IMG/VR virus record: IMGVR_UViG_3300028738_000008
DNA: 64,000 bases
Reading direction: 5' to 3' (one strand)
Source of the DNA: a virus
Taxonomy: Duplodnaviria; Caudoviricetes
Below the pieces are notes generated by a model. That model was not told where the DNA came from, did no database searches, and worked only from the letters and a program-made list of their open reading frames with translations. Below are positions 5,436 to 64,000 of the stretch, one piece after another (the first letter of the stretch is position 1; each line of letters begins with the position of its first letter). The position numbers and the translations under genes were made by a program.

Positions 5436-5463
5436 ACTATGTAAAAAATAAACATACATAATG

Positions 5464-5500
5464 ATCCCCTTTAATTGAAAGATTAAAGGGGATTTTTTTT
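5464..5500 (+). terminator. Attenuator terminator 1
   Basis: ATCCCCTTTAAT-tgaaag-ATTAAAGGGGAT plus T run, 2 nt before the first tRNA. Confidence 0.9.
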
Positions 5501-5502
5501 AT

Positions 5503-10199: not shown

Positions 10200-10225
10200 T
10201 GTAACATTTATTCTTTTTTTTCGTA
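10200..10225 (+). promoter_or_regulatory. ECF-type promoter
   Basis: TGTAAC-N16-CGTA(TAAT), same motif as in the 55-64 kb region. Confidence 0.7.
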
Positions 10226-10245
10226 TAATTTGTAAAAATAACAAT

Positions 10246-16049: not shown

Positions 16050-16075
16050 TGTAACCTTTTTGGTTTCTTAACGTA
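16050..16075 (+). promoter_or_regulatory. ECF-type promoter upstream of the suppressor tRNA
   Basis: TGTAAC-N16-CGTA, 15 nt before the tRNA 5' end. Confidence 0.7.
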
Positions 16076-16089
16076 TAAGTATTAAAATT

Positions 16090-16161
16090 GGCTCGTTAGT
16101 TCAGCGGTTAGGGCGTCTGACTCTAAATCAGAAGGCATGGTTTCGAATACCATACGAGCCG
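16090..16161 (+). tRNA. Amber suppressor tRNA (anticodon CTA)
   Basis: TCTGA-CTCTAAA-TCAGA perfect arm; GGCTCGT/ACGAGCC; G73. Confidence 0.9.
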
Positions 16162-16175
16162 CAAATAATTATAAT

Positions 16176-24840: not shown

Positions 24841-24866
24841 TGTAACCTTTTCAAAGTTTCTTCGTA
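24841..24866 (+). promoter_or_regulatory. Internal ECF-type promoter
   Basis: TGTAAC-N16-CGTA. Confidence 0.7.
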
Positions 24867-24942
24867 TAATAGAAAAAGATTTATGAGTACAAAAATTAAA
24901 TGATGATTTTTCGAACCATTGTAGTATTTATATTAAAATAGT

Positions 24943-25614
24943 ATGATGAAAGATCAAATTATCGAATTACGAAAATTGGGAAATTCGTACAACGAAATAG
25001 TAAGTAAACTTGGTTGTACAAAGTCAAATGTCTCATATCATTGTGGCAAATTAGGAATTAATTTACATAATGATAATCCGAAAAAAATAAGTGAACAAAT
25101 CGTAGAGTCAATAAGAAACGATAAAATTTCGTTGTCGTCTAAAGAGATTGCTTTAAAATATAATGTTAGCGTAAGTACAGTGAATAAATTTACAAAGATG
25201 AAGTCAAGGTCTTTAGATATAAAACCTGAAAGTAGCGTATGTTTAAATTGTGGTAAAGAAACACCGTATAGAAAAGAGAAACGATTTTGTAGCAATCAAT
25301 GCGGTGCTCAATATATACACAAATTGGCTTATAAAGATTTTTTAGAAAATAACGAAAAATATTGTGTTGGAAATTACACAGCTAAAAATTTTAAGGACTT
25401 TATTGTAGCTGAGCAAAATGATAAATGCTTGATATGTGGAATGTCAGCAATTTGGGAAAACAAAATATTAGTTTTCGTTTTAGATCACATTGACGGTAAT
25501 GCTTCAAATAACAAAAGAGAAAATTTAAGATTAATTTGTCCTAATTGCGATTCGCAAACAAGCACATTTAAATCGAAAACGAAGGTTTCAATGAGAAGAA
25601 ATTATAATAAATAA
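24943..25614 (+). mobile_element. HNH homing endonuclease with N-terminal HTH, inserted in the tRNA operon
   Basis: LDHIDGNASNNKRENLRLICPNCDSQT; CLNC...FCSNQC zinc finger. Confidence 0.9.
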
Positions 25615-42479: not shown

Positions 42480-42505
42480 TGTAACATTTTGAAAGTTTAA
42501 ACGTA
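42480..42505 (+). promoter_or_regulatory. ECF-type promoter
   Basis: TGTAAC-N16-CGTA. Confidence 0.7.
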
Positions 42506-42549
42506 TAAATAGGTAGCAGCATTAAAGTTGTTACCTATTTTTATTTATC

Positions 42550-43587
42550 ATGGGCGGAAAAGCATTACAGAAATACGGAGTCTTTACTGAGAGAAAAGAC
42601 ACTGAGGAATTTATGAGAATTGGCAGGAAAATGCAAGATATAATCAAGACTGAAATCGGACTTGATACCGCCATTGTTAAATGTTTCCACGAGAAACAAG
42701 ATCATGGCGATTTGGACTTGCTGATCAAAATACCTGAAAGAACATTCGGAACTGGCGGTGGCATTAATCTGGCTAGCTTTGTTGAGAACATCTTGAAACC
42801 AAGAGCTATCAATAACAATGGCGGAGTTATTTCATTCGACTTTGAAGAATTTCAAATCGACTTTATCTCAATTGAAGAAAGCGATTGGGAAATAGCTAAT
42901 ACTTATTTCTCTTATGATCCATTGGGAAATATCATGGGTAAAACCTATCATAAATTCAATTTATCATACGGCTGGAATGGTTTGTTTTACAAATTCAGAA
43001 ACCTAGACGGTAGAATCGGCGGAAACATCGAAATGACCAAAGACCCTAGGAAGATTTTTGAATTTGGAGACTACGATTACGACAGGTATTTGAAAGGATT
43101 CAATTCAATTGACGAAATTTATGATTTCGTTATGAAGTCTAAATACTTTGATACCAGCATCTTTCAATTTGAAGACTTGAATCATATTGATCGTAAGAGA
43201 AACAAGAAAAGAAAATCTTACAATGAGTTTCTTGCTTTCATGAATGAGAACAACATCGGAACTAAATACACTTTTGATAAAAATAAGGAAAACTACATCG
43301 ACATGATTGAAGAAGCTTTTCCCGAATCTAATTTGAAACATGAATTAAGTATCATAAAAAAGCGTGATGCTTTCCGTAGAGAACTGGCTAATAAATTCAG
43401 CGGTACGATTGTCATGGAATGGTTGCCAGAGTTGAAGGGTAAGGAATTGGGCTTGGCTTTGAGAGATTATAAAGAATCTCATGGTGACGGCTATGAAAAG
43501 TATATCATGAACCATAATATTGATCAAATAAAAATCAATTTTATGGCGTTGTATAACGGAAATGACTTGCACATTCCAAAATTTTAA
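42550..43587 (+). CDS. Putative nucleotidyltransferase (pol-beta superfamily)
   Basis: HGDLDLL (GDxD) motif and FQIDFI. Confidence 0.6.
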   Translation: MGGKALQKYGVFTERKDTEEFMRIGRKMQDIIKTEIGLDTAIVKCFHEKQDHGDLDLLIKIPERTFGTGGGINLASFVENILKPRAINNNGGVISFDFEEFQIDFISIEESDWEIANTYFSYDPLGNIMGKTYHKFNLSYGWNGLFYKFRNLDGRIGGNIEMTKDPRKIFEFGDYDYDRYLKGFNSIDEIYDFVMKSKYFDTSIFQFEDLNHIDRKRNKKRKSYNEFLAFMNENNIGTKYTFDKNKENYIDMIEEAFPESNLKHELSIIKKRDAFRRELANKFSGTIVMEWLPELKGKELGLALRDYKESHGDGYEKYIMNHNIDQIKINFMALYNGNDLHIPKF

Positions 43588-52507: not shown

Positions 52508-53068
52508 TTATAGCTGAAATATTTTGCCTGATGATTTAACAGTATCCATATTTTCTACAATAAAGGTACGGAACTTGCCAGAAGAGAGCTTTAATGCTTT
52601 GGTAATCAGTTGCTTAGCTATTGTTTTGTCGGCACTGTTTACTTTTTTATATTCGCCTTTGATTAAGGTAGTTTTAGAAATAACCATGCCAAAAATGTGA
52701 ACGGCTAAAGTTTCTTTGTGTATTCTGATGCTTGCATTAACATTATGATAAGCATCGGTCTGGGCTTGGCTTGCTACTGTACGATCTTCGATATTTGCAG
52801 ACAAGTTTTTTTGAGCTGCAGCAGTCATTTCCAAAAGAGCCAATCTAACAGTTGGTAATAATATGTTAGATTCTTTTGCAATATTGATCAAAATTGCATC
52901 GCTACAATTTTGCAATTTGCGAAAGTCAGCTTTTTTTATGTTAGCTACCGAAATATTGGTATTAATAACATAATTTGAAATTTCACCGCTTGTTTTACTT
53001 TCGTAGTTTTGGAAACCGATAAACCTTGCACCTTTCAAACCGTCTAATTCTGAAAATAAATTTGCCAT
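52508..53068 (-). CDS. Hypothetical protein
   Basis: Likely start MANLFSELDG at 53068 (track 53185). Confidence 0.75.
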   Translation of the reverse strand: MANLFSELDGLKGARFIGFQNYESKTSGEISNYVINTNISVANIKKADFRKLQNCSDAILINIAKESNILLPTVRLALLEMTAAAQKNLSANIEDRTVASQAQTDAYHNVNASIRIHKETLAVHIFGMVISKTTLIKGEYKKVNSADKTIAKQLITKALKLSSGKFRTFIVENMDTVKSSGKIFQL

Positions 53069-53425
53069 CGTAGGAAATTTTAATGGAATAACATCATTGT
53101 TAAATCCGATACAAAGATATAGCCATATGGAGGCGAAAACTATGACTTTTATCATGTTTCTAAAAATAAGTGCAAAATAAATCATTTATTTTTGATTATA
53201 TTTGTAACTCACTGGAAATCTGTCACTTAGAAACAAGAGTATTTTTTGATCTTATTTTGTGTATATCTATACTATATATATAGACTATTTTTAAAAGTAG
53301 GTTAATTTTGTAGCTTAAATTTGAATGATCTTTACAAAGTTGAACACTTATATAGATATGAAATAATAACGGCTAAAAACGGCTTAAAATCGAAATTGCA
53401 TTTATTTTTGATTATTTTTGTAAAC

Positions 53426-53439
53426 ATGATAAAAGTCAT
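53426..53439. promoter_or_regulatory. Operator-like palindrome ATGAY-N4-GTCAT
   Basis: Near-perfect copy here, perfect copy at 54340-54353, half site at about 57738-57742; each lies upstream of a TAnnTTTG element. Confidence 0.5.
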
Positions 53440-53512
53440 AGTTTTGGTATATCAATAGCATTACTTTTGACGTATAAATTATTTAAAGGTTACAAATTTA
53501 AACTATTTTATT

Positions 53513-54274
53513 ATGATGTTCGTAAATTGTTCACAGGCACGCAAAGAAACAAAGTTATCATATATCGGCGGAACAAATATTTCCAGTAAGATTAAAAAGA
53601 ATTTAAAGGTTAATATGTTAACCTACATCGTTTACCTTGCGCCATCTGACCATAGTGGACATAATGTTTGCACAAGTTCAACAGTTGAATGTCGTTTGGG
53701 TTGCCTTGCAACGTCGGGACGCAATATGATGGATATTAATTCTGGTAAACATATTATTAACAATGCAAGAGTCAGGAAAACACAATTGTTTTTTGATCAT
53801 AATGAATATTATATGGAATGGCTTGTAGCTGAAATAAAAAGTAAACAGCTAAAAGCTATTAAAGATAATAATTTGTTCAGTGTACGTTTGAACGGAACGT
53901 CGGATATTAACTGGCAAGAAATTATGTTAAATGGCAAGAATATCTTCGAAATCTTTCCAGACGTTCAATTTTATGACTACACAAAGAATGCAAAGAAATT
54001 TATTAACATAGCAAAAAATTATGATCTTACTTTTTCGTACACTGGAAAAAACTGGTCAACTTGTCAAAGATTATTATCAATAGGGTACAATGTTGCAATG
54101 ATCTTTAAAGATAGCATTCCTAACGATTACAAAGGTTATACTGTACTTAATGGCGATTTAACGGATAATAGGATAGGCGATTTAAAAGGTTGCATAGTGG
54201 GCTTAAAATGGAAAAGAATAGCTAATAAGGAAATAAACGAACAAATCAAAAATAGTGTGTTCGTAATTCAGTAA
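53513..54274 (+). CDS. Phage gp88-like protein (radical-SAM-like Cys cluster)
   Basis: VCTSSTVECRLGCL, SVRLNGTSDI, QFYDYTK and YDLTFS motifs. Confidence 0.75.
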   Translation: MMFVNCSQARKETKLSYIGGTNISSKIKKNLKVNMLTYIVYLAPSDHSGHNVCTSSTVECRLGCLATSGRNMMDINSGKHIINNARVRKTQLFFDHNEYYMEWLVAEIKSKQLKAIKDNNLFSVRLNGTSDINWQEIMLNGKNIFEIFPDVQFYDYTKNAKKFINIAKNYDLTFSYTGKNWSTCQRLLSIGYNVAMIFKDSIPNDYKGYTVLNGDLTDNRIGDLKGCIVGLKWKRIANKEINEQIKNSVFVIQ

Positions 54275-54425
54275 CATAATTAGGGGACAATGTTAAACAG
54301 AATTGTCCCCTAAATTTATTTTCATTTATTTTTGCAAACATGACAAAAGTCATAGTTTTGGCAATCAAAAGGCCTTATCTTTGTAGTATAAATTTTAAAG
54401 GTTACAAATTTAAAACTTTCTTATC

Positions 54426-54965
54426 ATGGTACAAACAATCAAATTTGATCAAATTTATTCAGACTACTACAAACGTATTAGTCATTTTATTGGTTTGAAA
54501 ATTGGTTTTAATTCGGGTATTACTGCCGAATTAACAAACGACGTATTTGTAAAAGTTAATTTACATTTAACCGAATTTGATGCAGAAAAAAGCAGTTTTG
54601 GCACATGGATACACACCATCGCAAAAAACATTATGATTGATTATTCCAGAAGCACGGAATACAAAAATCGCTACAAAACTGCACATATTGACGATACTGT
54701 TAATGATGAACTTCATCAGGTATTTCAAATTGCACACAAAGAAAACAATTCGGATATGGAACAAAACGAGGTTTATGTTCGGATTCAGGCTTCAATGGCA
54801 AAACTAAAGGAAAACGAAAAAACTTTGGTTGAGTTAATTATTCTCAAAGAATACAAATTGAAAGAGGTCGCCGAAATAACAAATATGACTTTGGCAAATG
54901 TAAAAGTAACGATTATGAGAGCAAAGGAAAAAATGAAGTTACAACTCGCAGATATATATTGTTAA
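54426..54965 (+). CDS. ECF-type sigma-70 family sigma factor 1
   Basis: ELTNDVFVKV...FDAEKSSFGTWIHTIAKNIMIDYSR (region 2); KEVAEITNMTLANVKVTIMRAK (region 4). Confidence 0.9.
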   Translation: MVQTIKFDQIYSDYYKRISHFIGLKIGFNSGITAELTNDVFVKVNLHLTEFDAEKSSFGTWIHTIAKNIMIDYSRSTEYKNRYKTAHIDDTVNDELHQVFQIAHKENNSDMEQNEVYVRIQASMAKLKENEKTLVELIILKEYKLKEVAEITNMTLANVKVTIMRAKEKMKLQLADIYC

Positions 54966-55072
54966 TCAGAACAAATGTCGGGAGCAATGTTCCCGACATT
55001 TGTTTTCATCATGTTACAATGTTCACACTTTAAAGATTCAATCCAATGTTAAAGATTATATTCAATTTAGAA

Positions 55073-55195
55073 ATGTCTCAAACCAGAATTAACATAATAT
55101 TAGCACTGATATTCTGTGCATTTATGTTTTTAACTTCATGCAGTTCAGGCAAACAATTGCATAGGTACAATGTTCAAACCGTTCACAACTTTTAA
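55073..55195 (+). CDS. Small lipoprotein-like peptide (40 aa)
   Basis: MSQTRINIILALIFCAFMFLTSCSS lipobox. Confidence 0.45.
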   Translation: MSQTRINIILALIFCAFMFLTSCSSGKQLHRYNVQTVHNF

Positions 55196-55419
55196 TATGT
55201 TACTACTTACAATGTCCCCAGAATCGTCAATGTCTCCAGCTCAGTTAATTATTTCACTGACTATCTTTATAGTCGTATGTGTTTCCGCTGGTATTATTCA
55301 GGACAAAATTAAATCAAAAAAGAAACCGAAATAATTGTAACCTATTTGCACAATGTTCGTATAATCTTAAACAAACACTTATCAATGTACATTCTTTGTT
55401 GTGTTCAAATAATAAAAAT

Positions 55420-55815
55420 ATGAATAAGCAAAAAAAAATATTACAAGCATTGTATAACATTTCTAAATCTGCAAAAGTAGGTTCTGAATGTACTTGTCCT
55501 TCATGCAACATATTGTTTGTTAAAACAAATTATCAGCAAGCATTTTGTAAATCTAAAAATGGAACATTATGTAAAGATTGGTATTGGAATAATGTAACTC
55601 CGAATAAACGAAATAATACTACACGAATTTCCCCAGCCAATGCAACATATTATAAAACTACAATTATTCCGAATATGTTGGAAGATCGTGGCTTTAGAAG
55701 TTTAGAAGAAATGAATGAACATATGTTAAATGACGATGGAAGTTGGGGCAGTCATCAATGCGTAGTTGAAAAATGCGAATTTTGTGGATATATTAATTGT
55801 GAATGTGAGTTTTAA
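55420..55815 (+). CDS. Cys-rich hypothetical protein
   Basis: ATG 55420 after the promoter cassette; CTCPSC, FC...C, CEFCG..C. Confidence 0.7.
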   Translation: MNKQKKILQALYNISKSAKVGSECTCPSCNILFVKTNYQQAFCKSKNGTLCKDWYWNNVTPNKRNNTTRISPANATYYKTTIIPNMLEDRGFRSLEEMNEHMLNDDGSWGSHQCVVEKCEFCGYINCECEF

Positions 55816-55874
55816 ACTGTAACCTTTTTTGATTAGTATCGTATAATCTTAAACAAACACTAAAACTCTTTATT

Positions 55875-56135
55875 ATGGCACAGGTTCAAAACAAAATCGC
55901 ATCACGTCCATTGTACACAATCGCAGGTGAAATCAGAGCTGAATGGCAAAAGGTTTACTTTGGTGCAGTCCCTTATCTTGAGGCAATGGAATGTCTTACC
56001 AGTATTGACCAGAAGTATGGCTGCGATGACGCCAAAAGTATTGTATTGTATTTCCTTAGCAATGCTTCAAGTTTTCGGGGGGATGCCGCAAAACGCATTA
56101 AAATCGAATTGAAAGCAATGTGCGGATTGAAGTAA
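55875..56135 (+). CDS. Small phage protein
   Basis: RPLYTIAGEI..W..VYFGAVPYLEAM...YFLSNASSFRG. Confidence 0.8.
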   Translation: MAQVQNKIASRPLYTIAGEIRAEWQKVYFGAVPYLEAMECLTSIDQKYGCDDAKSIVLYFLSNASSFRGDAAKRIKIELKAMCGLK

Positions 56136-56235
56136 ACATAAGCAAAACGAACAATGTTCAAATTACATTGTTCGTTTTGTAACCTTTTTTAATTAGTATC
56201 GTATAATCTTAAACAAACACTAAAAAATATTTATC

Positions 56236-56466
56236 ATGAAAAGTTTCAAATCTGTTTTAGTAATCGTTTTCTTATTGTTCACATTGGTATTGTTTGGAAG
56301 TTGCTCAGCATCCAATGGAACTTATCATAAGTCGAAGGGTAATTATGTTCAATCTCGACATGTGCAAAAAAAATCGGCTCAGATTCGCAATGGTAATCAG
56401 TGGAAGTGCAATCATGGTAAGCACAAAACTTTGCAACAAAAACATAATAAATTCCTGCTTTTTTAA
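56236..56466 (+). CDS. Small basic lipoprotein-like protein
   Basis: Hydrophobic N-terminus ending in FGSC. Confidence 0.6.
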   Translation: MKSFKSVLVIVFLLFTLVLFGSCSASNGTYHKSKGNYVQSRHVQKKSAQIRNGNQWKCNHGKHKTLQQKHNKFLLF

Positions 56467-56569
56467 TACTTCTTTTCTCTTTCATTTTTAGTTTTAAAAG
56501 GTTACATTAATTTGTAACCTTTTTTTTTGTTTATCGTATAATCTTAAACAAACACTAAAAACATTCATC

Positions 56570-56791
56570 ATGAGACTTTTAAAACTTTGCGCAAAATGTT
56601 CTGATCTTTGCGGTATCTCTTTTCAGAATGGTACTGGTAAAATTCATGAGTCAGACGGATATGTACCCGAAAACATCAATATCGGCGGCGGAGATTATGT
56701 TGAATTGGATATTGATATGGAAACTGGTCAGATTCAAAACTGGAAACCTGTCACCGATGCAGCAATTATTTTATCAATCAAAACGGCTTAA
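56570..56791 (+). CDS. Hypothetical protein
   Basis: After the promoter cassette; KCSD...GYVP...GGGDYVELDID. Confidence 0.75.
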   Translation: MRLLKLCAKCSDLCGISFQNGTGKIHESDGYVPENINIGGGDYVELDIDMETGQIQNWKPVTDAAIILSIKTA

Positions 56792-56796
56792 ACATC

Positions 56797-56985
56797 ATGG
56801 ATGATTATTACAATGTTAAAAGGCTTGCATTAGTTTTATCTGTGCAAGCAGAAATCGAAGGAATGAAGGCTGAAAATATGTTGCGTAGTCAAAATAATGA
56901 GTCGCCAGCATACGGCTCTGATCAATTCAATGAATGTGCAAACAAATTGGAAAATTTGGCTTACGCTCACAACGAACAATTGTAA
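56797..56985 (+). CDS. Hypothetical protein
   Basis: Its stop TAA lies inside the next TGTAAC. Confidence 0.65.
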   Translation: MDDYYNVKRLALVLSVQAEIEGMKAENMLRSQNNESPAYGSDQFNECANKLENLAYAHNEQL

Positions 56986-57017
56986 CCTTTTTGCACAATG
57001 TTCGTATAATATTAAAA

Positions 57018-57143
57018 GGGAGTTAGCATATATTGTATAATGCGAGAGGCGATTGCCATAGGCACATATTTCCTAATGTGGAAATACTTTGACAGTCTAA
57101 AAGTTGTTACTCTATAAAAAAGGTTCGATTCCTTTTATTCCCA
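57018..57143 (+). ncRNA. tRNA-shaped RNA with a branched insertion (about 60 nt) in place of the anticodon loop
   Basis: GGGAGTT/TATTCCC acceptor; GCAT/ATGC D stem; AGAG/CTCT stem enclosing TGCC-ATA-GGCA and ATTTCC/GGAAAT hairpins; T arm AAAGG-TTCGATT-CCTTT; own ECF-type promoter. Confidence 0.65.
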
Positions 57144-57201
57144 CTATTTTTTGTAACCTATTTGCACAATGTTCGTATAATCTTAAACAAACACAATCAT
57201 C

Positions 57202-57543
57202 ATGAAAGAATTTAAGATCGAAGGCAAGCCATTAGAAGATTTGAAAACTGTAATGATTTTCAGAAAGTATAAGAACGGCGAAGTCATTGCTTTAATGCCA
57301 TACGAAATTGCCGATATGCAGGGTCACATAATGTCATACATGCATCAGGTTCAACATTGTGCAACTGATTACAATGGCGTTGTAAGTCAAACAAAGTTGG
57401 CTAAACCAGAAGAGTATGCCGAATTACTTAAGGAACTTGAATGGGTTGGTTACGAAGTGAAAGCCAATTTAAAAAGAAATCACAATGTTTATTTGAAAGA
57501 GTATTACAGAATCGAGAACCTTTACAAAGAATCTTATAAATAA
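57202..57543 (+). CDS. Hypothetical protein
   Basis: After the promoter cassette. Confidence 0.75.
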   Translation: MKEFKIEGKPLEDLKTVMIFRKYKNGEVIALMPYEIADMQGHIMSYMHQVQHCATDYNGVVSQTKLAKPEEYAELLKELEWVGYEVKANLKRNHNVYLKEYYRIENLYKESYK

Positions 57544-57549
57544 ATTAAT

Positions 57550-57708
57550 ATGGTACAGCTACAAAGATCGCAATACATTCCAACGCTACAGGAATATAAT
57601 AACTCAAGGCTGATTGCTACAGATGTTTTATCTGGTCAGGAATATAGAAGGAAACTTCGCAGGGATAAAAGACACCCAGAAAAAATATCTTTCAAAGGAT
57701 ATAAATAA
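57550..57708 (+). CDS. Small basic hypothetical protein (52 aa)
   Basis: MVQLQRSQYIP...GQEYRRKLRR, translated by eye. Confidence 0.5.
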   Translation: MVQLQRSQYIPTLQEYNNSRLIATDVLSGQEYRRKLRRDKRHPEKISFKGYK

Positions 57709-57728
57709 TTAACTATTTTTTTGTAACA

Positions 57729-57761
57729 TTTGCAAAAGTCATTTTTATTGTTTATCTTTGT
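57729..57761 (+). promoter_or_regulatory. Bacteroidota housekeeping-sigma promoter of ECF sigma 2
   Basis: TTTG-N21-TATCTTTG. Confidence 0.7.
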
Positions 57762-57787
57762 ACCCTAATCAATTTAAATAATCTTGT

Positions 57788-58303
57788 ATGGAAAGGTATT
57801 CAGATTTTAATAAAGTTTATGTTGAGCACAAAGCTATGGTGTTTAACTTCGTTCTAATCAGAACAAACAACCGTGAAGTCTCGGAAGAGATTACAAGCGA
57901 TGTATTTGTAAAAGTAGCTGAATGTATGGATGTTTTTAATCCTGAGATTGCCAAGTTCACAACTTGGATGCTTACCATAGCAACGAATAAGATTAAAGAT
58001 TACTACAGATCATTGCAGACAGTTGCCAAACTTGGCGAAGTCTATTTATCTGAATACGTTCAAGCCGTTGCCCCAGATAGTAATGATTCAATTGAAAATG
58101 ATGAACTAAGGGCACAAATTGATCGTGCTTTTGATGTTCTTAAGGATATTGAAAAACAGGTTGCTGATCTTTATATTAAACAGGATAAGCAATACAAAGA
58201 GATTGCTGCACTGTTGGATATTCCAATTGGCTCAGTCAAAGGCTATTTAAGCCGTGCCAGAATGAAAATGCAAATCTATCTTAAAGATGTTTATGCTAAC
58301 TAA
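57788..58303 (+). CDS. ECF-type sigma-70 family sigma factor 2
   Basis: EEITSDVFVKV...FNPEIAKFTTWMLTIATNKIKDYYR; YKEIAALLDIPIGSVKGYLSRAR. Confidence 0.92.
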   Translation: MERYSDFNKVYVEHKAMVFNFVLIRTNNREVSEEITSDVFVKVAECMDVFNPEIAKFTTWMLTIATNKIKDYYRSLQTVAKLGEVYLSEYVQAVAPDSNDSIENDELRAQIDRAFDVLKDIEKQVADLYIKQDKQYKEIAALLDIPIGSVKGYLSRARMKMQIYLKDVYAN

Positions 58304-58402
58304 GATATATCTTGTCCATAATAATGTTTGTGTAATTAAAAACCCTGAAAGTTGTAACCTTTCAGGGTTTTGTTCGTATAATCTTAAACAAACATAGAAA
58401 TC

Positions 58403-58603
58403 ATGAAAAAGGTTATTTTAACCATTGGCGGCACAAAGTATGAAGTTCACTTCACGATATTAAAGTATGGCTCAAAAGGTTGTTACATTACCATTGAATC
58501 TGTATTTTCAACAATACAAAACTGCATGTCTATTTTAGGCTACACTGAAACCGATATCGAAAACAAAGTTATTTCTGCCTTATCACAGGCTACAGATATT
58601 TAG
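58403..58603 (+). CDS. Hypothetical protein
   Basis: After the promoter cassette. Confidence 0.6.
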   Translation: MKKVILTIGGTKYEVHFTILKYGSKGCYITIESVFSTIQNCMSILGYTETDIENKVISALSQATDI

Positions 58604-58656
58604 TTGTAACCTTTTTGAATCTGTATCGTATAATCTTAAACAAACATACCTATATT

Positions 58657-58842
58657 ATGACAGCTTTTGAGAATGAGAATAAAGTTTATTACATTAGAAA
58701 CCTTGGCAGATACGAGGAAGACGAGGACAGCGACATTCGTTTGACAAAGGAACTCAAAAGGCAATCAAAGCCAAAGCGACAGGTTGTTGAACATAACGTC
58801 AGCCAGAAGTTTAATCAAAAATTGAAAAACTCACGACGATAA
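58657..58842 (+). CDS. Hypothetical protein
   Basis: ATG 58657 after the cassette. Confidence 0.6.
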   Translation: MTAFENENKVYYIRNLGRYEEDEDSDIRLTKELKRQSKPKRQVVEHNVSQKFNQKLKNSRR

Positions 58843-58923
58843 GTTTTTAGGTCAGGTTCAAGACGGCTGAACTTGGGTAACTGTCTCACAAGGTAGCCTA
58901 CAAGCTTATTTAAAACATATACA

Positions 58924-59085
58924 ATGAAACCAAAGAAGACTATAGGCGTTCTAATCGACTACGTTAAAGCGAACCGAAAAGGCTCAAGGGACGCAGAACT
59001 GGAGCACTCAACTGGATGGACAGCAACGCATAAGGTTCACAAGTCAGACAAAACATATTCCAGAAAAAAGGCAAAGAATCTGTAA
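58924..59085 (+). CDS. Small basic protein (53 aa)
   Basis: MKPKK...YVKANRKGSRDAELE..TGW..HKVHKS; stop inside the next TGTAAC. Confidence 0.65.
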   Translation: MKPKKTIGVLIDYVKANRKGSRDAELEHSTGWTATHKVHKSDKTYSRKKAKNL

Positions 59086-59208
59086 CCTTTTTTCTGGAAT
59101 CTCGTATAATATAGTGTAGCCTTATGGATTAAGCCTAAATAATTATTTTGATATTAGTTGTAACCTTTTTTGATATTCATCGTATAATCTTAAACAAACA
59201 CAACGATC

Positions 59209-59436
59209 ATGGCAATAGTAAAAAAGAATTTTAAAGTAATCGGCAAAATCGACAGAGGTAATGGCATCGAAGATTATCCAATTTTTCTCATGGTCTCTTA
59301 TGATCAAAAGAAAGGCGAAAACTCAACGTCAATTGATGAAGATGTTCTTTTTGATGTTGAAAATTTGGCAAAAGAACATTTTTTACTAAAAATGAACGTT
59401 CCGTATTACGGTGCAAAATCTATTACCGTTGTGTAA
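59209..59436 (+). CDS. Hypothetical protein
   Basis: After the cassette; stop inside the next TGTAAC. Confidence 0.65.
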   Translation: MAIVKKNFKVIGKIDRGNGIEDYPIFLMVSYDQKKGENSTSIDEDVLFDVENLAKEHFLLKMNVPYYGAKSITVV

Positions 59437-59481
59437 CCTTTTTTGATATTCATCGTATAATCTTAAACAAACATTAAGACA

Positions 59482-59925
59482 ATGAAACTTTATACAACGA
59501 CTGCAAAAGGTAATTCATTTTTGGCAAAGACTAATTCAAAAGTCATCGAAGCTATTGACAATGTGATTAATACGGGTATTCGTATTCGCTTTTGGTATGG
59601 CGATGATGAAACGGGCTGTTCGTGGGTTGAAGAAAATGATACAATTGGAACCATCGGTAGGTCAACAGGTGACTATAAAATACCATTATTAATTAAGAAT
59701 AAACGATCTTTAGGCGGCGGCGCAATACTTACTCATTGTATTGTGAAATTGGTCGATATATCCAATAATAAAGTTTTATATGTTCACCCAAAATTCAGCC
59801 TACCAGAAATAGACTGTTATTTCATGAAAGTTATTGTTGATCATAAAGTATATGCAAACTGTGATTCATGGAATCAGGCGATAAGATTAACAAAGTTTTT
59901 AACAGGTCAAAGAAATTGTAAATAG
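59482..59925 (+). CDS. Hypothetical phage protein
   Basis: RIRFWYGD.ETG.SW.EE.D..G.IGRSTG..KIPLLI...S.GG.AIL. Confidence 0.8.
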   Translation: MKLYTTTAKGNSFLAKTNSKVIEAIDNVINTGIRIRFWYGDDETGCSWVEENDTIGTIGRSTGDYKIPLLIKNKRSLGGGAILTHCIVKLVDISNNKVLYVHPKFSLPEIDCYFMKVIVDHKVYANCDSWNQAIRLTKFLTGQRNCK

Positions 59926-59999
59926 GTTGTTTATTCTTTTAGACATTTGTAACCTTTTTTAATAGTTTGCGTATAATCTTAAACAAACACTTCGACATC

Positions 60000-60299
60000 A
60001 TGTTAGAATTCACGAACGCAAGGTCATTCAATTTTAGCTTAAAGAAAGCAGTACAAAAGGAAACAGGCTTAAAAGTATCCGTTGAGATCATAAACAGTTA
60101 CAACTTTCCAAAGTGCTGGGTTCGCATACATGCGCCAAGACCAATAATGTTTTCAAACGAATTCAGGCAAAAAGTATTTACCGCTTGTGGCTACGACAGC
60201 AAAGGACTTTTGGATAGTGACGATATTTGCTATGGTAACATAATGCCTAGCAATATCAGTGCCCATGTTCCCGAATGGCTGAAAGTATTCAAAGACTAG
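60000..60299 (+). CDS. Hypothetical protein
   Basis: ATG 60000 after the cassette. Confidence 0.7.
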   Translation: MLEFTNARSFNFSLKKAVQKETGLKVSVEIINSYNFPKCWVRIHAPRPIMFSNEFRQKVFTACGYDSKGLLDSDDICYGNIMPSNISAHVPEWLKVFKD

Positions 60300-60405
60300 T
60301 AAATAGTCGAATGACTACAAAGATAGTTAATAATTAAGTTGGCTATCTTTGTAACCTTTTTGAATATTCATCGTATAATCTTAAACAAACATTAAAACAT
60401 TGATT

Positions 60406-60732
60406 ATGAAAAAGATTAAATCGTTTATCAACTCAGAAAATGTTCAGGCTTATGGTACGTCTTTAGTTGACAAAATTGAAGTGACTTTTGCAGAATTAAC
60501 CAAAGTCTTTGGCAAACGCACATTTGGCGCATCAGGTGACAATAAATGTGCCGCACAATGGCACTTGTTATTCGAAGACGGCACTGTTGCAACCATTTAC
60601 GATTATAAAGAATGTATTGCATACTGTGGAAGAAAACGAGGTAAAAAGGTCGGCGATATTACAGATTGGCATATCGGAGGCAACAGCGAAAGAGCCGCAA
60701 TTTTGGTGAAAAAAGAATTAGGATTGTTGTAA
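60406..60732 (+). CDS. Hypothetical phage protein
   Basis: FGKRT...DNKCAAQW...VATIYDYK...WHIGG. Confidence 0.8.
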   Translation: MKKIKSFINSENVQAYGTSLVDKIEVTFAELTKVFGKRTFGASGDNKCAAQWHLLFEDGTVATIYDYKECIAYCGRKRGKKVGDITDWHIGGNSERAAILVKKELGLL

Positions 60733-60783
60733 CCTATTTGCACAATGTTCGTATAATCTTAAACAAACACTAAAACATTTATC

Positions 60784-60999
60784 ATGGCTGCAACAAAATT
60801 ACAAGAAAGACATTTTGAAAACGAATTAGTTCATAATCCAAGTTTATATGTCGATCAGACATGCAACATGGTTAATCTAACCACTCTGGCAGAAAGTTTT
60901 ATCGACGAACACCAACCAGCGAACAAAGAACAGGTTTATGAATCAGCTATAGATTGGTTCAAAGGTTGGAGAGGTAATGTAAGATATCATAATAATTAA
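60784..60999 (+). CDS. Hypothetical protein
   Basis: After the cassette. Confidence 0.65.
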   Translation: MAATKLQERHFENELVHNPSLYVDQTCNMVNLTTLAESFIDEHQPANKEQVYESAIDWFKGWRGNVRYHNN

Positions 61000-61146
61000 A
61001 AATATAATTGTTCCTTCCCCCAAGTTTGTTTGTGTTTGCCCTGAGAAGTTGTAACCTTCTTGGGGCATTTGCATTTATACAATGTTCGATATAGTTGTAA
61101 CCTTTTCTGGCAATGTACGTATAACCTATAACAAACAATATACATT

Positions 61147-61344
61147 ATGAGCACGATCTACGAAATCATCGAAAGAAAAAAACAGGGTGTCGATTGTACA
61201 GAAGCTGAGAGCGCAACGATCAAAACGTGGCTCAAAGAACTGAAACTCCCATTTGAACAGCCTACAATGGGCGACGTTATGGAATTGTTTTCAGAAGAGT
61301 ACGGCGAATTTCTGGATGAGGTTCAGGTAAAAAACCCTTATTGA
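61147..61344 (+). CDS. Hypothetical protein
   Basis: After the cassette. Confidence 0.65.
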   Translation: MSTIYEIIERKKQGVDCTEAESATIKTWLKELKLPFEQPTMGDVMELFSEEYGEFLDEVQVKNPY

Positions 61345-61396
61345 TTGTAACCTTTTGGGGCAATGTACGTATAACCTTAAACAAACAATATCTATC

Positions 61397-61651
61397 ATGG
61401 CAGACTATATTAACAGAGCACATTTTGACTCAATGAACCCAAGGCAGACTCATAGAACCAGAGAGCAATTTAGAAAAATGAATTCTAATGAAGCACCCAA
61501 AGGATATTATCCAATGCTTAAAGAGTCATTGAGTTCAAGCGATAATGTTTGTAATCATTGTGACTGGCGCAGTGATTGTACAAAGGCTATTTGTTCATGC
61601 ATGGCGTATGATCGTAAAGATGGCGTCGGCGTAATATTTAAAGAAATATAA
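61397..61651 (+). CDS. Cys-rich hypothetical protein
   Basis: APKGYYPM...CNHCDWR..C...CSCM.YDRKDG..VIFK. Confidence 0.7.
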   Translation: MADYINRAHFDSMNPRQTHRTREQFRKMNSNEAPKGYYPMLKESLSSSDNVCNHCDWRSDCTKAICSCMAYDRKDGVGVIFKEI

Positions 61652-61697
61652 TTGTAACCTTTTCTGGCAATGTACGTATATTCTAAAAACAATTATC

Positions 61698-61895
61698 ATG
61701 ACCGAAGCAATTGCTATTAATAATTTGAACAATGTTCAAGCTAAGCGACACAAGATGGTTTACGCTATACTGGCGAACCGCTACAGGCTTAAAATATTGT
61801 CAGAGGCACAATATTATAACTTTGAACAAAGGTTGCTTAATTCGTCTTATTCGCACCTTTATAAAGTATATGGCAAAGAGTGTAACCTTTTATAA
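61698..61895 (+). CDS. Hypothetical protein
   Basis: After the cassette. Confidence 0.5.
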   Translation: MTEAIAINNLNNVQAKRHKMVYAILANRYRLKILSEAQYYNFEQRLLNSSYSHLYKVYGKECNLL

Positions 61896-61932
61896 TCTTA
61901 CTCGTATAATCTTAAACAAATAATTTAAAGCT

Positions 61933-62076
61933 ATGTCATTTATTGTATTAGAAAAATTCGGTGGAAATGTTAATGTCTGCACCAATGAGGATGGCGAAAC
62001 CCTTGAGTTTGAAACGGCTGAACTTGCACAAGTTGAGGCTGATGACTGTCAGGACGGACAAGTAGTTGAGGTATAA
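61933..62076 (+). CDS. Small acidic protein (47 aa)
   Basis: After the cassette; MSFIVLEKFGG...GQVVEV. Confidence 0.6.
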   Translation: MSFIVLEKFGGNVNVCTNEDGETLEFETAELAQVEADDCQDGQVVEV

Positions 62077-62095
62077 ATCTTTAAATGCATTAATT

Positions 62096-62440
62096 ATGAA
62101 GAAATTAACACGTGAACAGGTTATTGAAGAAATTATTCAAAACCTTTATGAACTTGAAGATGAAACACTTTTAGGCGATACCCTGAGAGACGGCTTCAAA
62201 GGCTATAATAATTATACTGATAAAGAGTTGATTAGTCAGTATAAGATTGTATTTGAGACAGAAATTGAAATTCCTCGACAGTCATTAACAAGGGCTGAAA
62301 TCTGCGAAAAATTGAATGCTGATTTTGATTCTAAGCATAATCATGAATCATTTCCAAGCACTTACGAACACTATACAGACCGTGAATTAGCAAACGAATT
62401 TTACAGAACATTTCACTATCGTATAAGTTTTACGAAATAA
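62096..62440 (+). CDS. Hypothetical protein with duplicated LTREQ...Y..YTD.EL unit
   Basis: Internal repeat; similar G..GYNEFSDAEL motif in 63513..63911. Confidence 0.7.
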   Translation: MKKLTREQVIEEIIQNLYELEDETLLGDTLRDGFKGYNNYTDKELISQYKIVFETEIEIPRQSLTRAEICEKLNADFDSKHNHESFPSTYEHYTDRELANEFYRTFHYRISFTK

Positions 62441-62510
62441 TAAAAAGAATCATGATAAGTTGTAACCTTATCATGATTCTTTCGTATAATCTTAAACAAA
62501 CACATTCACT

Positions 62511-62930
62511 ATGAAAATACTCGAAGGTAAAATTCCAACAGTTGCAGGGTTCTATTTTGCAAAGTCTGAAACATCTAATAAATGGCAACTGCTTATCAAG
62601 GTGTCTGGAGTAGCACCGTTCATGAATATGGATAACATTCATTGCCTGAATCAGGAATCCGACGACACGATTCTCCAAAACCTTTTAACTGTTGAGTGGA
62701 GTGAGGCAGTTGAAATGACAGCAACTACCCTTGATGTCCATTGTGGCTTTACCATTTCAATGGAAACAAAAGATTCGATTATTAATAAACTGATTGATGG
62801 TCAGAAACTTGCGGCAGTAATATTACTGAAAAAAAGTACAGACAATGAAATGGGATTGAAAGAAGCTAAAAATTATGTTGATGCCCTTGAGGTCACTCTG
62901 AAAGACTCAGGAGTACTTCAACGAAAATAA
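62511..62930 (+). CDS. Protein with a C-terminal ribosomal L7/L12-CTD-like domain
   Basis: GQKLAAVILLKKST...MGLKEAKNYVD. Confidence 0.65.
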   Translation: MKILEGKIPTVAGFYFAKSETSNKWQLLIKVSGVAPFMNMDNIHCLNQESDDTILQNLLTVEWSEAVEMTATTLDVHCGFTISMETKDSIINKLIDGQKLAAVILLKKSTDNEMGLKEAKNYVDALEVTLKDSGVLQRK

Positions 62931-63002
62931 TAGAAAGAACCCGAATAAGTTGTAACCTTATTCGGGTTCTTTCGTATAACCTTAAACAAACACAATCGTA
63001 TT

Positions 63003-63467
63003 ATGAAATCAATTGAGTATCTTTTACAATTACACCCAGATAAGACAGGCAGAGAAATTCTGGCAATCCAAGCCGAAGAAAAACTTGAAGACGAAAGGAA
63101 ATTCGAAAAAGCTAATGCAAAGAAATTGAAATTCGTTATTGATCATAATACCAATGGCGGTTACTATTGCGGAAGGTTTGGCGTCGATCAACGCTATTTC
63201 TATCGTGTTTTCAATATGAGAATGGAAGGCTCTGATATTTATATGGACGTTGAAACAATAGTAGTCTTTATGAATGATGCCGACTCTGAAAGCACACGGA
63301 ACAAAGGCGAAGTGAATGTAGAAAGGCGTATCAAAGAATTTCAAAAAGAGGATAAGTATTGCTTAAATAGCGAAATGCAAAACAGAGTAACAAAAAAGGA
63401 ATGGGACGAAGTTAACGACTATGTAAATAATCTGGCAAAGTTCTGGGAACACATCAAAAAAGTGTAA
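63003..63467 (+). CDS. Hypothetical protein
   Basis: After the cassette; stop inside the next TGTAAC. Confidence 0.75.
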   Translation: MKSIEYLLQLHPDKTGREILAIQAEEKLEDERKFEKANAKKLKFVIDHNTNGGYYCGRFGVDQRYFYRVFNMRMEGSDIYMDVETIVVFMNDADSESTRNKGEVNVERRIKEFQKEDKYCLNSEMQNRVTKKEWDEVNDYVNNLAKFWEHIKKV

Positions 63468-63512
63468 CCTTATTCGGGTTCTTTCGTATAACCTTAAACA
63501 AACATTCAAAAT

Positions 63513-63911
63513 ATGAAAACAGTTTCAAAGGAATTAGCGATCAGTATGATTTTACAGGCAATCGTTGTGAACATTCAAAGGAATGACGGTACGGGCAAAG
63601 GCATTGACGATATGTGCAAACGTTTGGAAAGTGGCTTTGTTGGTTACAACGAATTTTCAGACGCTGAACTGGAAAGCGAATACAATTATTTATCTGGCGA
63701 CACTGAGCCAATTAAGATCGAAAAGCCTACGTTTCAATTAGAACGTGACATTGAACAGATCACACGTTATTATTTCACGGTTCATGCCGACAACGTGGAA
63801 GAGGCTAACAAGCTGTTAGATGCTTGCATTGATAAAGGCGAAATCCCTTGTATTTTCCAACAAAATCAAGAAGGTAATATCACTTGCTATGACCGTCTGG
63901 CAGACTGCTAA
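63513..63911 (+). CDS. Hypothetical protein
   Basis: After the cassette. Confidence 0.7.
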   Translation: MKTVSKELAISMILQAIVVNIQRNDGTGKGIDDMCKRLESGFVGYNEFSDAELESEYNYLSGDTEPIKIEKPTFQLERDIEQITRYYFTVHADNVEEANKLLDACIDKGEIPCIFQQNQEGNITCYDRLADC

Positions 63912-64000
63912 AAGAAATTGAAAAATAAGGTTGCAGAGTTGTAACCTTATTTTTTGTTTTGCGTATAATATAGTGTAGCCTTATGACTATTAATTAATTG

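What the first reader, a model, noticed from the sequence alone, without database searches (positions are those of the whole stretch)
53400..64000. Phage ECF-sigma cascade: two ECF sigma genes inside an array of about 22 ECF-type promoters
Seen: TGTAAC-N16-CGTA with fixed spacing precedes most small genes in 55.3-64 kb and four distant loci (10200, 16050, 24841, 42480). Both ECF genes sit behind host-type TAnnTTTG elements instead. Established: this matches ECF consensus (AAC at -35, CGT at -10; compare B. subtilis SigW TGAAAC-N16-CGTA), not the Bacteroidota housekeeping consensus. Inference: host sigma transcribes the phage ECFs, which then drive this regulon, including the suppressor tRNA. 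A host ECF sigma is an alternative reader.
Basis: partly seen in the sequence, partly recalled or inferred. Interest (0 to 1): 0.72.

Follow-up and report, generated by a model that had tools for sequence, protein, structure and literature searches.

The report
Phage ECF-sigma promoter array
A giant uncultured phage of Bacteroidota puts the same stress-type (ECF) promoter in front of nearly every small gene in a long array and carries two ECF sigma genes of its own. This is the familiar "bring your own sigma" strategy, but the promoter copies one the host bacteria use, for example in front of their main sigma gene.

Summary
TGTAAC-N16-CGTA occurs 26 times, all on the + strand (0.1 expected): 22 at 55336-63965 and four at 10200, 16050, 24841 and 42480. 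Both sigma genes (54426-54965, 57788-58303) pass the ECF model and sit behind conserved host-type TTG...TAnnTTTG promoters.

The array runs past the window end. It is conserved in two relatives, and ten other IMG/VR phage contigs carry 2 to 58 exact sites each. All ten carry an ECF sigma gene. In three of them it sits directly at the head of the array.

The promoter is not phage-private. The same boxes lie before the primary sigma gene, queA and SPFH/NfeD genes of Bacteroidota. Published start-site maps of Flavobacterium psychrophilum show them working as an ECF-class promoter.

Best reading (0.62): host sigma-A makes the phage ECF sigmas, which drive the array with host core polymerase. A host ECF sigma may also fire these promoters. 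I could not tell which of the two phage sigmas reads the array.

This scan had already found the same system on other phage genomes. I found no paper that describes it.

The parts
52508..53068 (-). Early gene of unknown function (186 aa). It is transcribed divergently from a host-type promoter module at 53100-53185. The ORF lister's start at 53185 is too far upstream.
   Evidence: The L006 homologue starts MANL... The module AAACATGATAAAAGTCATAG plus TATCTTTG lies on the - strand at 53119-53112.
53418..53469 (+). Host-type (sigma-A) promoter of the GP88-like gene: TTG 53418-53420, TAGTTTTG 53439-53446 and a second -7 box TACTTTTG 53462-53469.
53513..54274 (+). GP88-family gene (PF17338, phrog_1617), an early gene followed by the terminator hairpin 54282-54311.
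54332..54383 (+). Host-type promoter of sig1: TTG 54332-54334, TAGTTTTG 54353-54360 and a second box TATCTTTG 54376-54383.
   Evidence: The box and leader are conserved in L001 and L006.
54426..54965 (+). sig1, a phage ECF-type sigma factor (179 aa). It is monocistronic and followed by the terminator 54970-55004.
57730..57760 (+). Host-type promoter of sig2: TTG, a 20-nt spacer, then TATCTTTG.
   Evidence: Conserved in L001 and L006.
57788..58303 (+). sig2, a phage ECF-type sigma factor (171 aa), 28% identical to sig1. No terminator lies between ECF-type promoter 57152 and this gene.
10200..10229 (+). ECF-type promoter before ORF 10246-10434.
16050..16079 (+). ECF-type promoter before the suppressor tRNA (anticodon CTA) at 16090-16162.
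24841..24870 (+). ECF-type promoter before the HNH-endonuclease-like gene 24943-25614. That gene also has a TATTTATA box at 24925.
42480..42509 (+). ECF-type promoter before gene 42550-43587 (phrog_24943, annotated 'DNA polymerase').
55336..55365 (+). ECF-type promoter, the first of the array, before 55420-55815.
55818..55847 (+). ECF-type promoter before 55875-56135.
56178..56207 (+). ECF-type promoter before 56236-56466. The terminator hairpin 56142-56180 abuts the -35 box.
56513..56542 (+). ECF-type promoter before 56570-56791. The -35 box forms the 3' arm of hairpin 56496-56523.
56981..57010 (+). ECF-type promoter before a non-coding, tRNA-shaped RNA candidate at 57012-57150.
57152..57181 (+). 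ECF-type promoter before 57202-57543 and 57550-57708. Read-through into sig2 is possible.
58353..58382 (+). ECF-type promoter before 58403-58603. The -35 box lies in the loop of a -19.8 kcal/mol hairpin.
58605..58634 (+). ECF-type promoter before 58657-58842.
59081..59110 (+). ECF-type promoter before a short unit with no ORF. It is the first of a tandem pair spaced 78 nt.
59159..59188 (+). ECF-type promoter before 59209-59436.
59432..59461 (+). ECF-type promoter before 59482-59925 (phrog_17487).
59948..59977 (+). ECF-type promoter before 60000-60299.
60350..60379 (+). ECF-type promoter before 60406-60732. Hairpin 60316-60353 abuts it.
60728..60757 (+). ECF-type promoter before 60784-60999.
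61096..61125 (+). ECF-type promoter before 61147-61344.
61346..61375 (+). ECF-type promoter before 61397-61651.
61653..61682 (+). ECF-type promoter (CGTATATT variant) before 61698-61895.
61881..61910 (+). ECF-type promoter before 61933-62076 and the following ORF.
62461..62490 (+). ECF-type promoter before 62511-62930. The -35 box lies in the loop of a -19 kcal/mol hairpin.
62951..62980 (+). ECF-type promoter before 63003-63467. The -35 box lies in the loop of a -22 kcal/mol hairpin.
63463..63492 (+). ECF-type promoter before 63513-63911.
63940..63969 (+). ECF-type promoter, the first of a second tandem pair. The array goes on beyond the window end.

Best explanation
The region is the start of a long 'accessory gene' array of a jumbo phage of Bacteroidota (contigs up to 265.6 kb). 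Each one- or two-gene unit carries its own ECF-type promoter (TGTAACCTTTT-N11-CGTATAAT) and a short A/C-rich leader without a Shine-Dalgarno sequence. Often a terminator hairpin is fused to the -35 box.

Proposed course of events:
1. On entry, host sigma-A polymerase uses the TTG...TAnnTTTG promoters of four early genes: sig1, sig2, the GP88-like gene and the divergent gene 52508-53068.
2. The two phage ECF sigmas have no anti-sigma partner. They bind host core polymerase and fire the ECF-type promoters. The predicted start is an A about 9 nt after CGTA, inside CTTAAAC.
3. This switches on the array, the suppressor tRNA, an HNH gene, a polymerase-like gene and at least one small RNA. Read-through from promoter 57152 may reinforce sig2.

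The promoter type is borrowed from a conserved host ECF regulon, so a host ECF sigma may fire it too.

Shown: the motif, its geometry, its conservation, the sigma family, the host-type promoters and the host counterpart. Inferred: which sigma reads the motif, the timing and the start site.
For: The motif is real and strand-locked. It occurs 26 times against 0.1 expected, with fixed geometry relative to start codons.

The boxes stay invariant while spacers diverge. This holds in relatives whose sig2 is 63% and 79% identical: 52 forward and 0 reverse sites on the 148.5-kb contig, and 17 forward and 0 reverse on the 9.5-kb contig. The array continues past the window with 46 sites in 20.4 kb.

All three elements match experimentally defined ECF promoters: AAC, a -35-proximal T-tract and CGTA (PMC5758882).

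Both sigmas are true ECF members and have conserved host-type promoters.

Ten further IMG/VR phage contigs were checked. Nine have 6 to 58 exact sites against controls of 0-1, and the tenth (G016) has only 2. All ten carry an ECF sigma gene. In G008, G007 and G014 that gene sits directly at the head of the array.

sig1, sig2 and those array-head sigmas form one phage clade with support 92/96, apart from host ECFs.
Against: There are no transcript data. No RNA run was listed, so start sites, timing and the reading sigma are all inferred.

The same promoter exists in host genomes and is active there as an ECF-class promoter. A host sigma could therefore do the job.

The phage sigmas have diverged to about 30% identity between phage lineages while the motif stayed identical.

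Recognition-helix comparison could not assign the motif to sig1 or sig2.

One complete phage (G016) has two ECF genes but only a chance-level count of this motif.
Confidence: 0.62

Rival explanations
1. A host ECF sigma is the real and sufficient reader. It would be the one that serves the conserved TGTAAC-N16/17-CGTATAA promoters before rpoD and the SPFH/NfeD genes. Infection stress would release it from its anti-sigma, and the phage array would ride on the host stress response. The two phage ECF sigmas would serve other promoters or another purpose.
For: The exact 17-base motif was found at 120 or more bacterial loci, mostly in Bacteroidota. 35 lie before the 287-aa primary sigma gene and 19 before queA.

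In a sample of 101 Bacteroidota genomes, 8 have the motif about 36 nt before rpoD and about 7 have it before SPFH, NfeD, flotillin or AdoMetDC genes.

The F. psychrophilum start-site table lists GTAAC-N16-CGTATAAC before a Band 7 gene as class SM6 'SigECF'. It also lists a start 31 nt before rpoD behind TGTAAC-N17-CGTATAAC.

The single-copy GFO_1088-family ECF gene of four Flavobacteriia has TGTAAC-N16-CGTC (GTAAC-N16-CGTC in one of the four) upstream of itself.
Against: Every array-bearing phage contig I checked carries its own ECF sigma, often exactly at the array head.

Hosts hold only 1-3 such promoters per genome, against 50 or more in a phage. Host ECF supply is normally held back by an anti-sigma (established knowledge).

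The only other phage-specific motif seen, TATTTATA, has no -35 partner, so it does not look like an ECF target.
Confidence: 0.15
2. Labour is divided between the two phage sigmas. Only one of sig1 and sig2 reads TGTAAC-N16-CGTATAA. The other reads a subclass, for example the promoters with CAATGT(T/A) directly before CGTA, or an unrelated class, giving a three-step cascade.
For: The two paralogues are only 28% identical, and both are kept in all three related phages. sig2 is far better conserved than sig1 (63% against 41% between the window and L001). sig2 can be reached by read-through from an ECF-type promoter, while sig1 cannot. 7 of the 26 promoters carry CAATGT(T/A) next to the -10 box.
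Against: Array-head sigmas of other phages carry either the sig1-like (VKV) or the sig2-like (VKG) recognition-helix pattern, yet use the same boxes. No second bipartite motif was found in the window.
Confidence: 0.15
3. The repeats are mainly recombination or termination cassettes, or RNA-level elements, and their likeness to a promoter is incidental.
For: 11 of 26 sites have a strong hairpin (-12.6 kcal/mol or stronger) that ends at or encloses the -35 box. Two cassette gains or losses between 99.9%-identical strains have their junctions inside promoter repeats.
Against: 15 of 26 sites have no such hairpin. The invariant parts are the two asymmetric boxes at fixed spacing, not the stems. The same boxes are mapped promoters in a Flavobacterium. 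One site drives a tRNA with no ORF.
Confidence: 0.04

Closest known systems
SM6 / 'SigECF' promoter class and the rpoD-proximal promoter of Flavobacterium psychrophilum (Guerin et al. 2021, PMC9723704)
   Same: The boxes and spacing match: (T)GTAAC-N16/17-CGTATAAC, with CGT at about -12/-13 and an A/C-rich leader. These are experimentally mapped start sites in the host phylum. The same motif lies before rpoD, queA and SPFH/NfeD genes across Bacteroidota.
   Different: Hosts carry one to three such promoters per genome, while the phages carry dozens. The host reader is presumably an anti-sigma-controlled cellular ECF. The phage sigmas are only 20-30% identical to host ECFs.
Bacillus subtilis SigW (ECF01) and its promoters tGAAACnTTTt-...-CGTA (Gaballa et al. 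2018, PMC5758882)
   Same: AAC at -35, a T-tract next to it, a 16-nt spacer and CGTA at -10. SigW is the best solved-structure match of sig1 (5WUQ, E 4e-10). From my own knowledge, the SigW regulon also includes flotillin and NfeD genes, as the host counterpart regulon does here.
   Different: The phage proteins score far below the SigW family cut-offs. They have no anti-sigma partner, and the host phylum is different.
Coliphage phiEco32 gp36 sigma with its middle and late promoters (PMC12276001)
   Same: A small phage-encoded sigma redirects host core polymerase from sigma-70 early promoters to a phage promoter set.
   Different: The gp36 promoters have a phage-private AATGTA element at -11.5, and gp36 needs the cofactor gp79. 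Here the promoter is a canonical bipartite ECF promoter shared with the host, and no cofactor is known.
Sigma cascades of Bacillus phage SPO1 (gp28, then gp33/34) and the T4 late sigma gp55 (established knowledge; the SPO1 switch is mentioned in PMC13401047, and own sigmas in group 2 jumbo phages in PMC7824862)
   Same: Host sigma makes phage sigma, which takes over core polymerase. Jumbo phages without their own polymerase carry sigma genes.
   Different: Those promoters are unlike any host promoter class, and the proteins are not ECF-family members.
PeSL cassettes (promoter-early stem-loops) of T4-type phages (Arbiol et al. 2010, PMC2839356)
   Same: Near-identical promoter and stem-loop terminator modules flank small accessory genes. 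Recombination between the modules adds or removes genes. Two such events separate 99.9%-identical strains of this phage.
   Different: PeSL promoters are sigma-70-type early promoters. Here they are ECF-type, and the hairpin often encloses the -35 box.

Membership tests
ECF (group 4) sigma-70-family sigma factors | Only domains sigma-2 and sigma-4; no region 1.1 or region 3; length about 160-220 aa | tested here: met
   Pfam finds Sigma70_r2 plus Sigma70_r4_2 only, in proteins of 179 and 171 aa. By contrast the host primary sigma shows r1.2, r2, r3 and r4.
ECF (group 4) sigma-70-family sigma factors | Score above the curated cut-off of the family model TIGR02937 | tested here: met
   82.3 and 88.7 bits against a cut-off of 42.9. 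No subfamily or equivalog cut-off is reached.
ECF (group 4) sigma-70-family sigma factors | Co-transcribed anti-sigma factor (common, not universal) | tested here: not met
   sig1 is monocistronic between its promoter and terminator 54970-55004. sig2 is followed at once by a hairpin-and-promoter unit. No membrane or zinc anti-sigma-like neighbour was found.
ECF (group 4) sigma-70-family sigma factors | Autoregulation from its own promoter type | tested here: inconclusive
   The nearest promoters are host sigma-A type. sig2 can be reached by read-through from ECF-type promoter 57152 because no terminator was found between them. sig1 cannot.
ECF (group 4) sigma-70-family sigma factors | Binds core polymerase and directs initiation at specific promoters | not testable with these tools
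   This needs in vitro transcription or reporter assays.
ECF-type promoters (SigW-like / Flavobacterium SM6 class) | AAC in the -35 box and CGT in the -10 box, 16-17 nt apart | tested here: met
   26 of 26 sites have TGTAAC, exactly 16 nt, then CGTA. Spacers of 15 or 17 give no site.
ECF-type promoters (SigW-like / Flavobacterium SM6 class) | T-tract next to the -35 box | tested here: met
   CTTTT follows AAC in 22-26 of 26 sites. The element is defined experimentally in PMC5758882.
ECF-type promoters (SigW-like / Flavobacterium SM6 class) | Transcription starts about 8-9 nt after CGTA | not testable with these tools
   No RNA run was listed. The position is inferred from the F. psychrophilum table.
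PeSL-like mobile regulatory cassettes | Promoter fused to a stem-loop terminator, repeated between small accessory genes | tested here: met
   11 of 26 sites have hairpins of -12.6 kcal/mol or stronger that end at or enclose the -35 box. 13 terminator-like sites were found against 5 expected.
PeSL-like mobile regulatory cassettes | Gene gain or loss with junctions inside the repeats | tested here: met
   L002/L005 against L003/L004 (99.9% identical) differ by a 763-bp and a 654-bp cassette. The junctions are 48- and 50-bp promoter repeats, just past the window end.
PeSL-like mobile regulatory cassettes | Sigma-70-type early promoter | tested here: not met
   The promoter is ECF-type.
phiEco32 gp36-type system | AATGTA promoter element centred at -11.5 and a gp79-like cofactor | tested here: not met
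   The consensus here is bipartite TGTAAC/CGTATAA. AATGT occurs before CGTA in only 7 of 26 sites. A cofactor was not searched for.

The most novel reading that the evidence does not exclude
The phage copies the promoter of a conserved host envelope-stress ECF regulon on purpose. The membrane insult of infection would free the host ECF sigma, which fires the first wave of the array within seconds. The phage's own ECF sigmas have no anti-sigma partner, so they would then lock the programme on. They would also hit the host's copies of the promoter (rpoD, SPFH/NfeD). The antisense TGTAACC elements in the leaders of the early genes would let ECF holoenzyme shut the sigma-A promoters off. Together these would form a complete early-to-middle switch built from one borrowed host signal.
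Probability: 0.2. Interest if true: 0.72.

Novelty: new variant of a known kind. Interest (0 to 1): 0.5.

Why it matters
Transcription programmes of Bacteroidota phages are almost unknown, and those of the many uncultured jumbo phages even less so. This work gives a readable regulon map: three promoter classes, with one class marking dozens of genes per genome. The map can be applied to hundreds of metagenomic phage genomes to sort genes by expression stage.

The match to a host ECF promoter class points to a conserved and so far unnamed host regulon (rpoD, queA, SPFH/NfeD). It also offers a simple test system: two small sigmas and a 30-nt promoter, useful both for phage-host transcription takeover and as orthogonal expression parts in Bacteroidota. 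The promoter repeats also act as recombination points that shuffle accessory genes between strains.

Tried and rejected
- RNA evidence: no RNA holder was listed for 54300-64000 or for 58340-60300.
- The window's whole genome is not held.
- blastn of 53400-60000 against cultured or deposited phages gave no match.
- A strict promoter-plus-leader pattern found nothing in IMG/VR.
- Peptide patterns for sig1 found nothing in IMG/VR.
- Rfam gave only sub-threshold chance hits in 53-64 kb.
- TAG or TGA recoding is not visible in the window: reading through stops does not fuse genes.
- Covariation test: G016 has two ECF genes but lacks the motif. Its repeated sequence turned out to be a CRISPR-like array, so it gave no alternative promoter to compare.
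- Genome-wide enrichment in hosts: none of 150 other sampled Bacteroidota genomes has the strict 17-base motif. The relaxed 13-base motif is no more frequent than its reversed control. Only the gene context (rpoD, SPFH/NfeD) is non-random.
- Identity of the host reader: the GFO_1088-family ECF is a candidate, but the F. psychrophilum supplements did not settle it.
- Assigning the motif to sig1 or sig2 from recognition-helix residues failed.
- Rejected reading: sigma-70-type TATAAT promoter. The host phylum uses TAnnTTTG, and the -35 and spacer geometry fits ECF promoters instead.

Full report
**Observation.** TGTAAC-N16-CGTA occurs 26 times in the window, always on the + strand. Shuffles give 0.1 on average. 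The positions are exactly those reported: 22 sites between 55336 and 63965, plus 10200, 16050, 24841 and 42480. Spacers of 15 or 17 nt give nothing, and CGTATAA is never found on the - strand. The information profile shows two invariant blocks, tTGTAACCTTTT and CGTATAA(T/C). A conserved leader, CTTAAACAAACA, follows, and the spacer between the blocks is variable. At 19 of 26 sites the end of the -10 block lies 15-28 nt before the ATG of the next small ORF. Site 16050 lies 14 nt before the amber-suppressor tRNA. Site 56981 precedes a 140-nt stretch without an ORF that folds like a tRNA.

**Sigma genes.** ORFs 54426-54965 (sig1) and 57788-58303 (sig2) have only sigma-70 regions 2 and 4. They pass the ECF superfamily model TIGR02937, reach no subfamily cut-off, and hit the phage sigma family phrog_1740. 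They are 28% identical to each other. The closest solved structures are B. subtilis SigW and E. coli sigma-E. Neither gene has an anti-sigma-like neighbour.

**Early promoters.**
- Four genes carry a shared module that is itself a canonical Bacteroidota sigma-A promoter. They are the divergent gene 52508-53068, the GP88-like gene, sig1 and, in a looser form, sig2.
- The module is TTG, 18-20 nt, then TAnnTTTG. For sig1 and GP88 a second -7 box lies 15 nt further on.
- The bipartite host pattern occurs 19 times on the + strand and 6 times on the - strand. It marks many genes in 5-46 kb, including the tRNA operons.
- Inside the array only three TAnnTTTG boxes lie on the + strand, and one of them is the sig2 promoter.
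- The host consensus is documented for Flavobacterium (PMC9723704).
- Strong terminators follow GP88 and sig1. No terminator separates ECF-type promoter 57152 from sig2.

**Relatives.**
- The window's phage occurs on many metagenome contigs, the longest 265.6 kb. On one of them the array goes on for at least 10 kb past the window end at the same density, with 46 sites in 20.4 kb.
- An IMG/VR contig of 148.5 kb (sig2 63% identical, sig1 41%) has 52 sites forward and none reverse. It has the same four distal sites and a dense array running to the contig end.
- A third relative (sig2 79% identical) has 17 sites in 9.5 kb.
- In all three the boxes are unchanged while the spacers differ. Both sigma orthologues keep their host-type promoters and leaders.

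**Wider spread.**
- The strict motif hits 101 or more IMG/VR loci.
- Nine of ten further contigs have 6 to 58 exact sites against 0-1 for the reversed control. One of them is a complete 321.6-kb genome.
- All ten encode at least one ECF sigma.
- In G008, G007 and G014 the sigma gene lies directly upstream of the array on the same strand. The units there have the same layout and also drive tRNAs and a conserved small RNA.
- On a tree, sig1, sig2 and these array-head sigmas form one phage clade (support 92/96), separate from host ECFs. A second phage ECF clade is also separate.

**Host side.**
63 of the 80 loci whose titles were shown are Bacteroidota.
- The gene behind the motif is the 287-aa primary sigma factor in 35 cases and QueA in 19. 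Several others are SPFH/Band 7, NfeD, flotillin or AdoMet decarboxylase.
- In an even sample of 101 Bacteroidota genomes the relaxed motif is no more frequent than its control. Even so, 8 genomes have it about 36 nt before rpoD, and about 7 have it before SPFH, NfeD, flotillin or AdoMetDC genes.
- The published start-site table of F. psychrophilum lists GTAAC-N16-CGTATAAC before a Band 7 gene as class SM6, 'SigECF'. Its coordinates put CGT at -12. It also lists a start 31 nt before rpoD behind TGTAAC-N17-CGTATAAC (main text).
- So this is a working host promoter class. By analogy the phage start site is an A in CTTAAAC.
- The single-copy GFO_1088-family ECF of four Flavobacteriia has TGTAAC-N16-CGTC (GTAAC-N16-CGTC in one of the four) before its own gene and is a candidate host reader.
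- The phage sigmas are only 20-30% identical to host ECFs.

**Who reads the array.**
- For the phage sigmas: they always occur together with the array and repeatedly sit at its head. Their expression from host-type promoters fits a cascade. Dozens of strong promoters need a large sigma supply, and host ECFs are normally held by anti-sigmas.
- For a host sigma: the motif is identical to a host promoter, and it stays invariant across phage lineages whose sigmas share only about 30% identity.
- I rate phage sigmas as the main reader at 0.62, with a host contribution possible, and host sigma alone at 0.15.
- Residues of the -35 recognition helix do not separate sig1 (VKV) from sig2 (VKG). Array-head sigmas of other phages show either pattern with the same boxes.

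**Comparison with known systems.**
- The logic is that of phiEco32 gp36 and of SPO1 and T4 (established knowledge), and of sigma-bearing jumbo phages.
- The differences are a canonical ECF sigma, a canonical bipartite ECF promoter with its T-tract, a promoter class shared with the host, and the scale.
- The hairpin-plus-promoter units resemble the PeSL cassettes of T4-type phages. 11 of 26 sites have strong hairpins at the -35 box.
- Two cassette gains or losses between 99.9%-identical strains have their junctions inside promoter repeats.
- I found no paper describing ECF-type promoter arrays in phages.
- Notes of this scan report the same system on other phage genomes and elsewhere in this genome. 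I had reached the SM6/rpoD link on my own before reading those notes.

**Limits.** Everything about timing, start sites and the reading sigma is inferred. No RNA runs were listed, the phage is uncultured, and the host species is unknown.

Noticed in passing
window 57012-57150: Promoter 56981 is followed by an RNA candidate of about 140 nt with no ORF. It has a tRNA-like acceptor stem and a GGTTCGATTCC T-arm (fold -31 kcal/mol, z -2.0). ARAGORN and Rfam miss it. It is 80% conserved in relative L006 at 5392-5519.
   Followed up: partly
window 59081-59188 and 63940-64000: These are tandem ECF-type promoters 78 nt apart. The first drives only a short conserved stretch (ATAGTGTAGCCTTATG...) with no ORF. 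The same pair occurs in L006 (8069/8147) and L003 (10428/10506). It may be a tiny RNA or a promoter doublet.
   Followed up: no
window 53489-53494 and 54401-54406 (- strand): The leaders of the early GP88 and sig1 genes contain GGTTACAAATTTAAA, the reverse complement of the -35 box with its T-tract. It is conserved before sig1 in L001 and L006. At GP88 the - strand has a full TGTAAC-N16-CGTC whose -10 box abuts the sigma-A -7 box (CGT on the - strand at 53472-53470; the box is 53462-53469). This may be a way for ECF holoenzyme to shut early promoters off.
   Followed up: partly
window 55350, 56995, 57166, 60742, 61079; hairpin 56142-56180: A second short element, ACAATGTTCG or GCAATGTA, lies directly before CGTA in 7 of 26 promoters. 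It also forms terminator stems, and in L001 it lies upstream of the -35 boxes. Its function is unknown. It may be a regulator site or may mark a promoter subclass.
   Followed up: partly
window 227, 1125(-), 1640(-), 1664, 2065, 6975, 8037, 13155(-), 17609, 24924, 39108, 41908, 48233: A third motif, (G)TATTTATA, lies on the gene's own strand, 10-20 nt before the ATG at most of these sites. It has no -35 partner, and the array holds no intergenic copy. It looks like a late-type single-box promoter. The HNH gene has both this motif and an ECF-type promoter.
   Followed up: partly
L003 10549-11263 and 12329-12932 (just past the window end; window = L003 + 53512): Strain variants that are 99.9% identical differ by two gene cassettes of 763 and 654 bp, with junctions inside promoter repeats. 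At window 61096 the spacer of the promoter also differs between the window and L003. This points to recombination between promoter copies.
   Followed up: partly
L003 17181-17993: A second GP88-family gene sits inside the array behind an ECF-type promoter (L003 17125). The first copy (window 53513-54274) has a host-type promoter. So there is one paralogue per expression class.
   Followed up: no
window 52508-53185: The longest-ORF call for the divergent early gene starts inside its own promoter. The homologue in L006 shows that the true start is the ATG at 53068 (186 aa).
   Followed up: yes
L270 (G016, IMGVR_UViG_3300015615_000196, first ~700 bases): A complete 362.6-kb phage with two ECF sigma genes but no TGTAAC array carries about 12 copies of a 36-nt repeat with a period of about 66 bp at its end. 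This looks like a phage-borne CRISPR array.
   Followed up: no
L272 (G008) about 6380 and L273 (G007, reverse strand) about 12940: In two distant jumbo phages the same ECF-type promoter drives a conserved small RNA that begins GGCTGG(A/G)TAA(T/C)ACTAGGGTGCAGTAATCCACTCCTGCC. It also drives tRNA genes.
   Followed up: no
L146-L150 (Flavobacteriia and a Marinilabiliales-like genome): The single-copy GFO_1088-family ECF sigma gene of these bacteria has TGTAAC-N16-CGTC (GTAAC-N16-CGTC in L149) upstream of it. The strict CGTATAA form lies before rpoD, queA, SPFH/NfeD/flotillin, LemA/MerR-like and AdoMetDC genes. This looks like a conserved host regulon that has not been named.
   Followed up: partly
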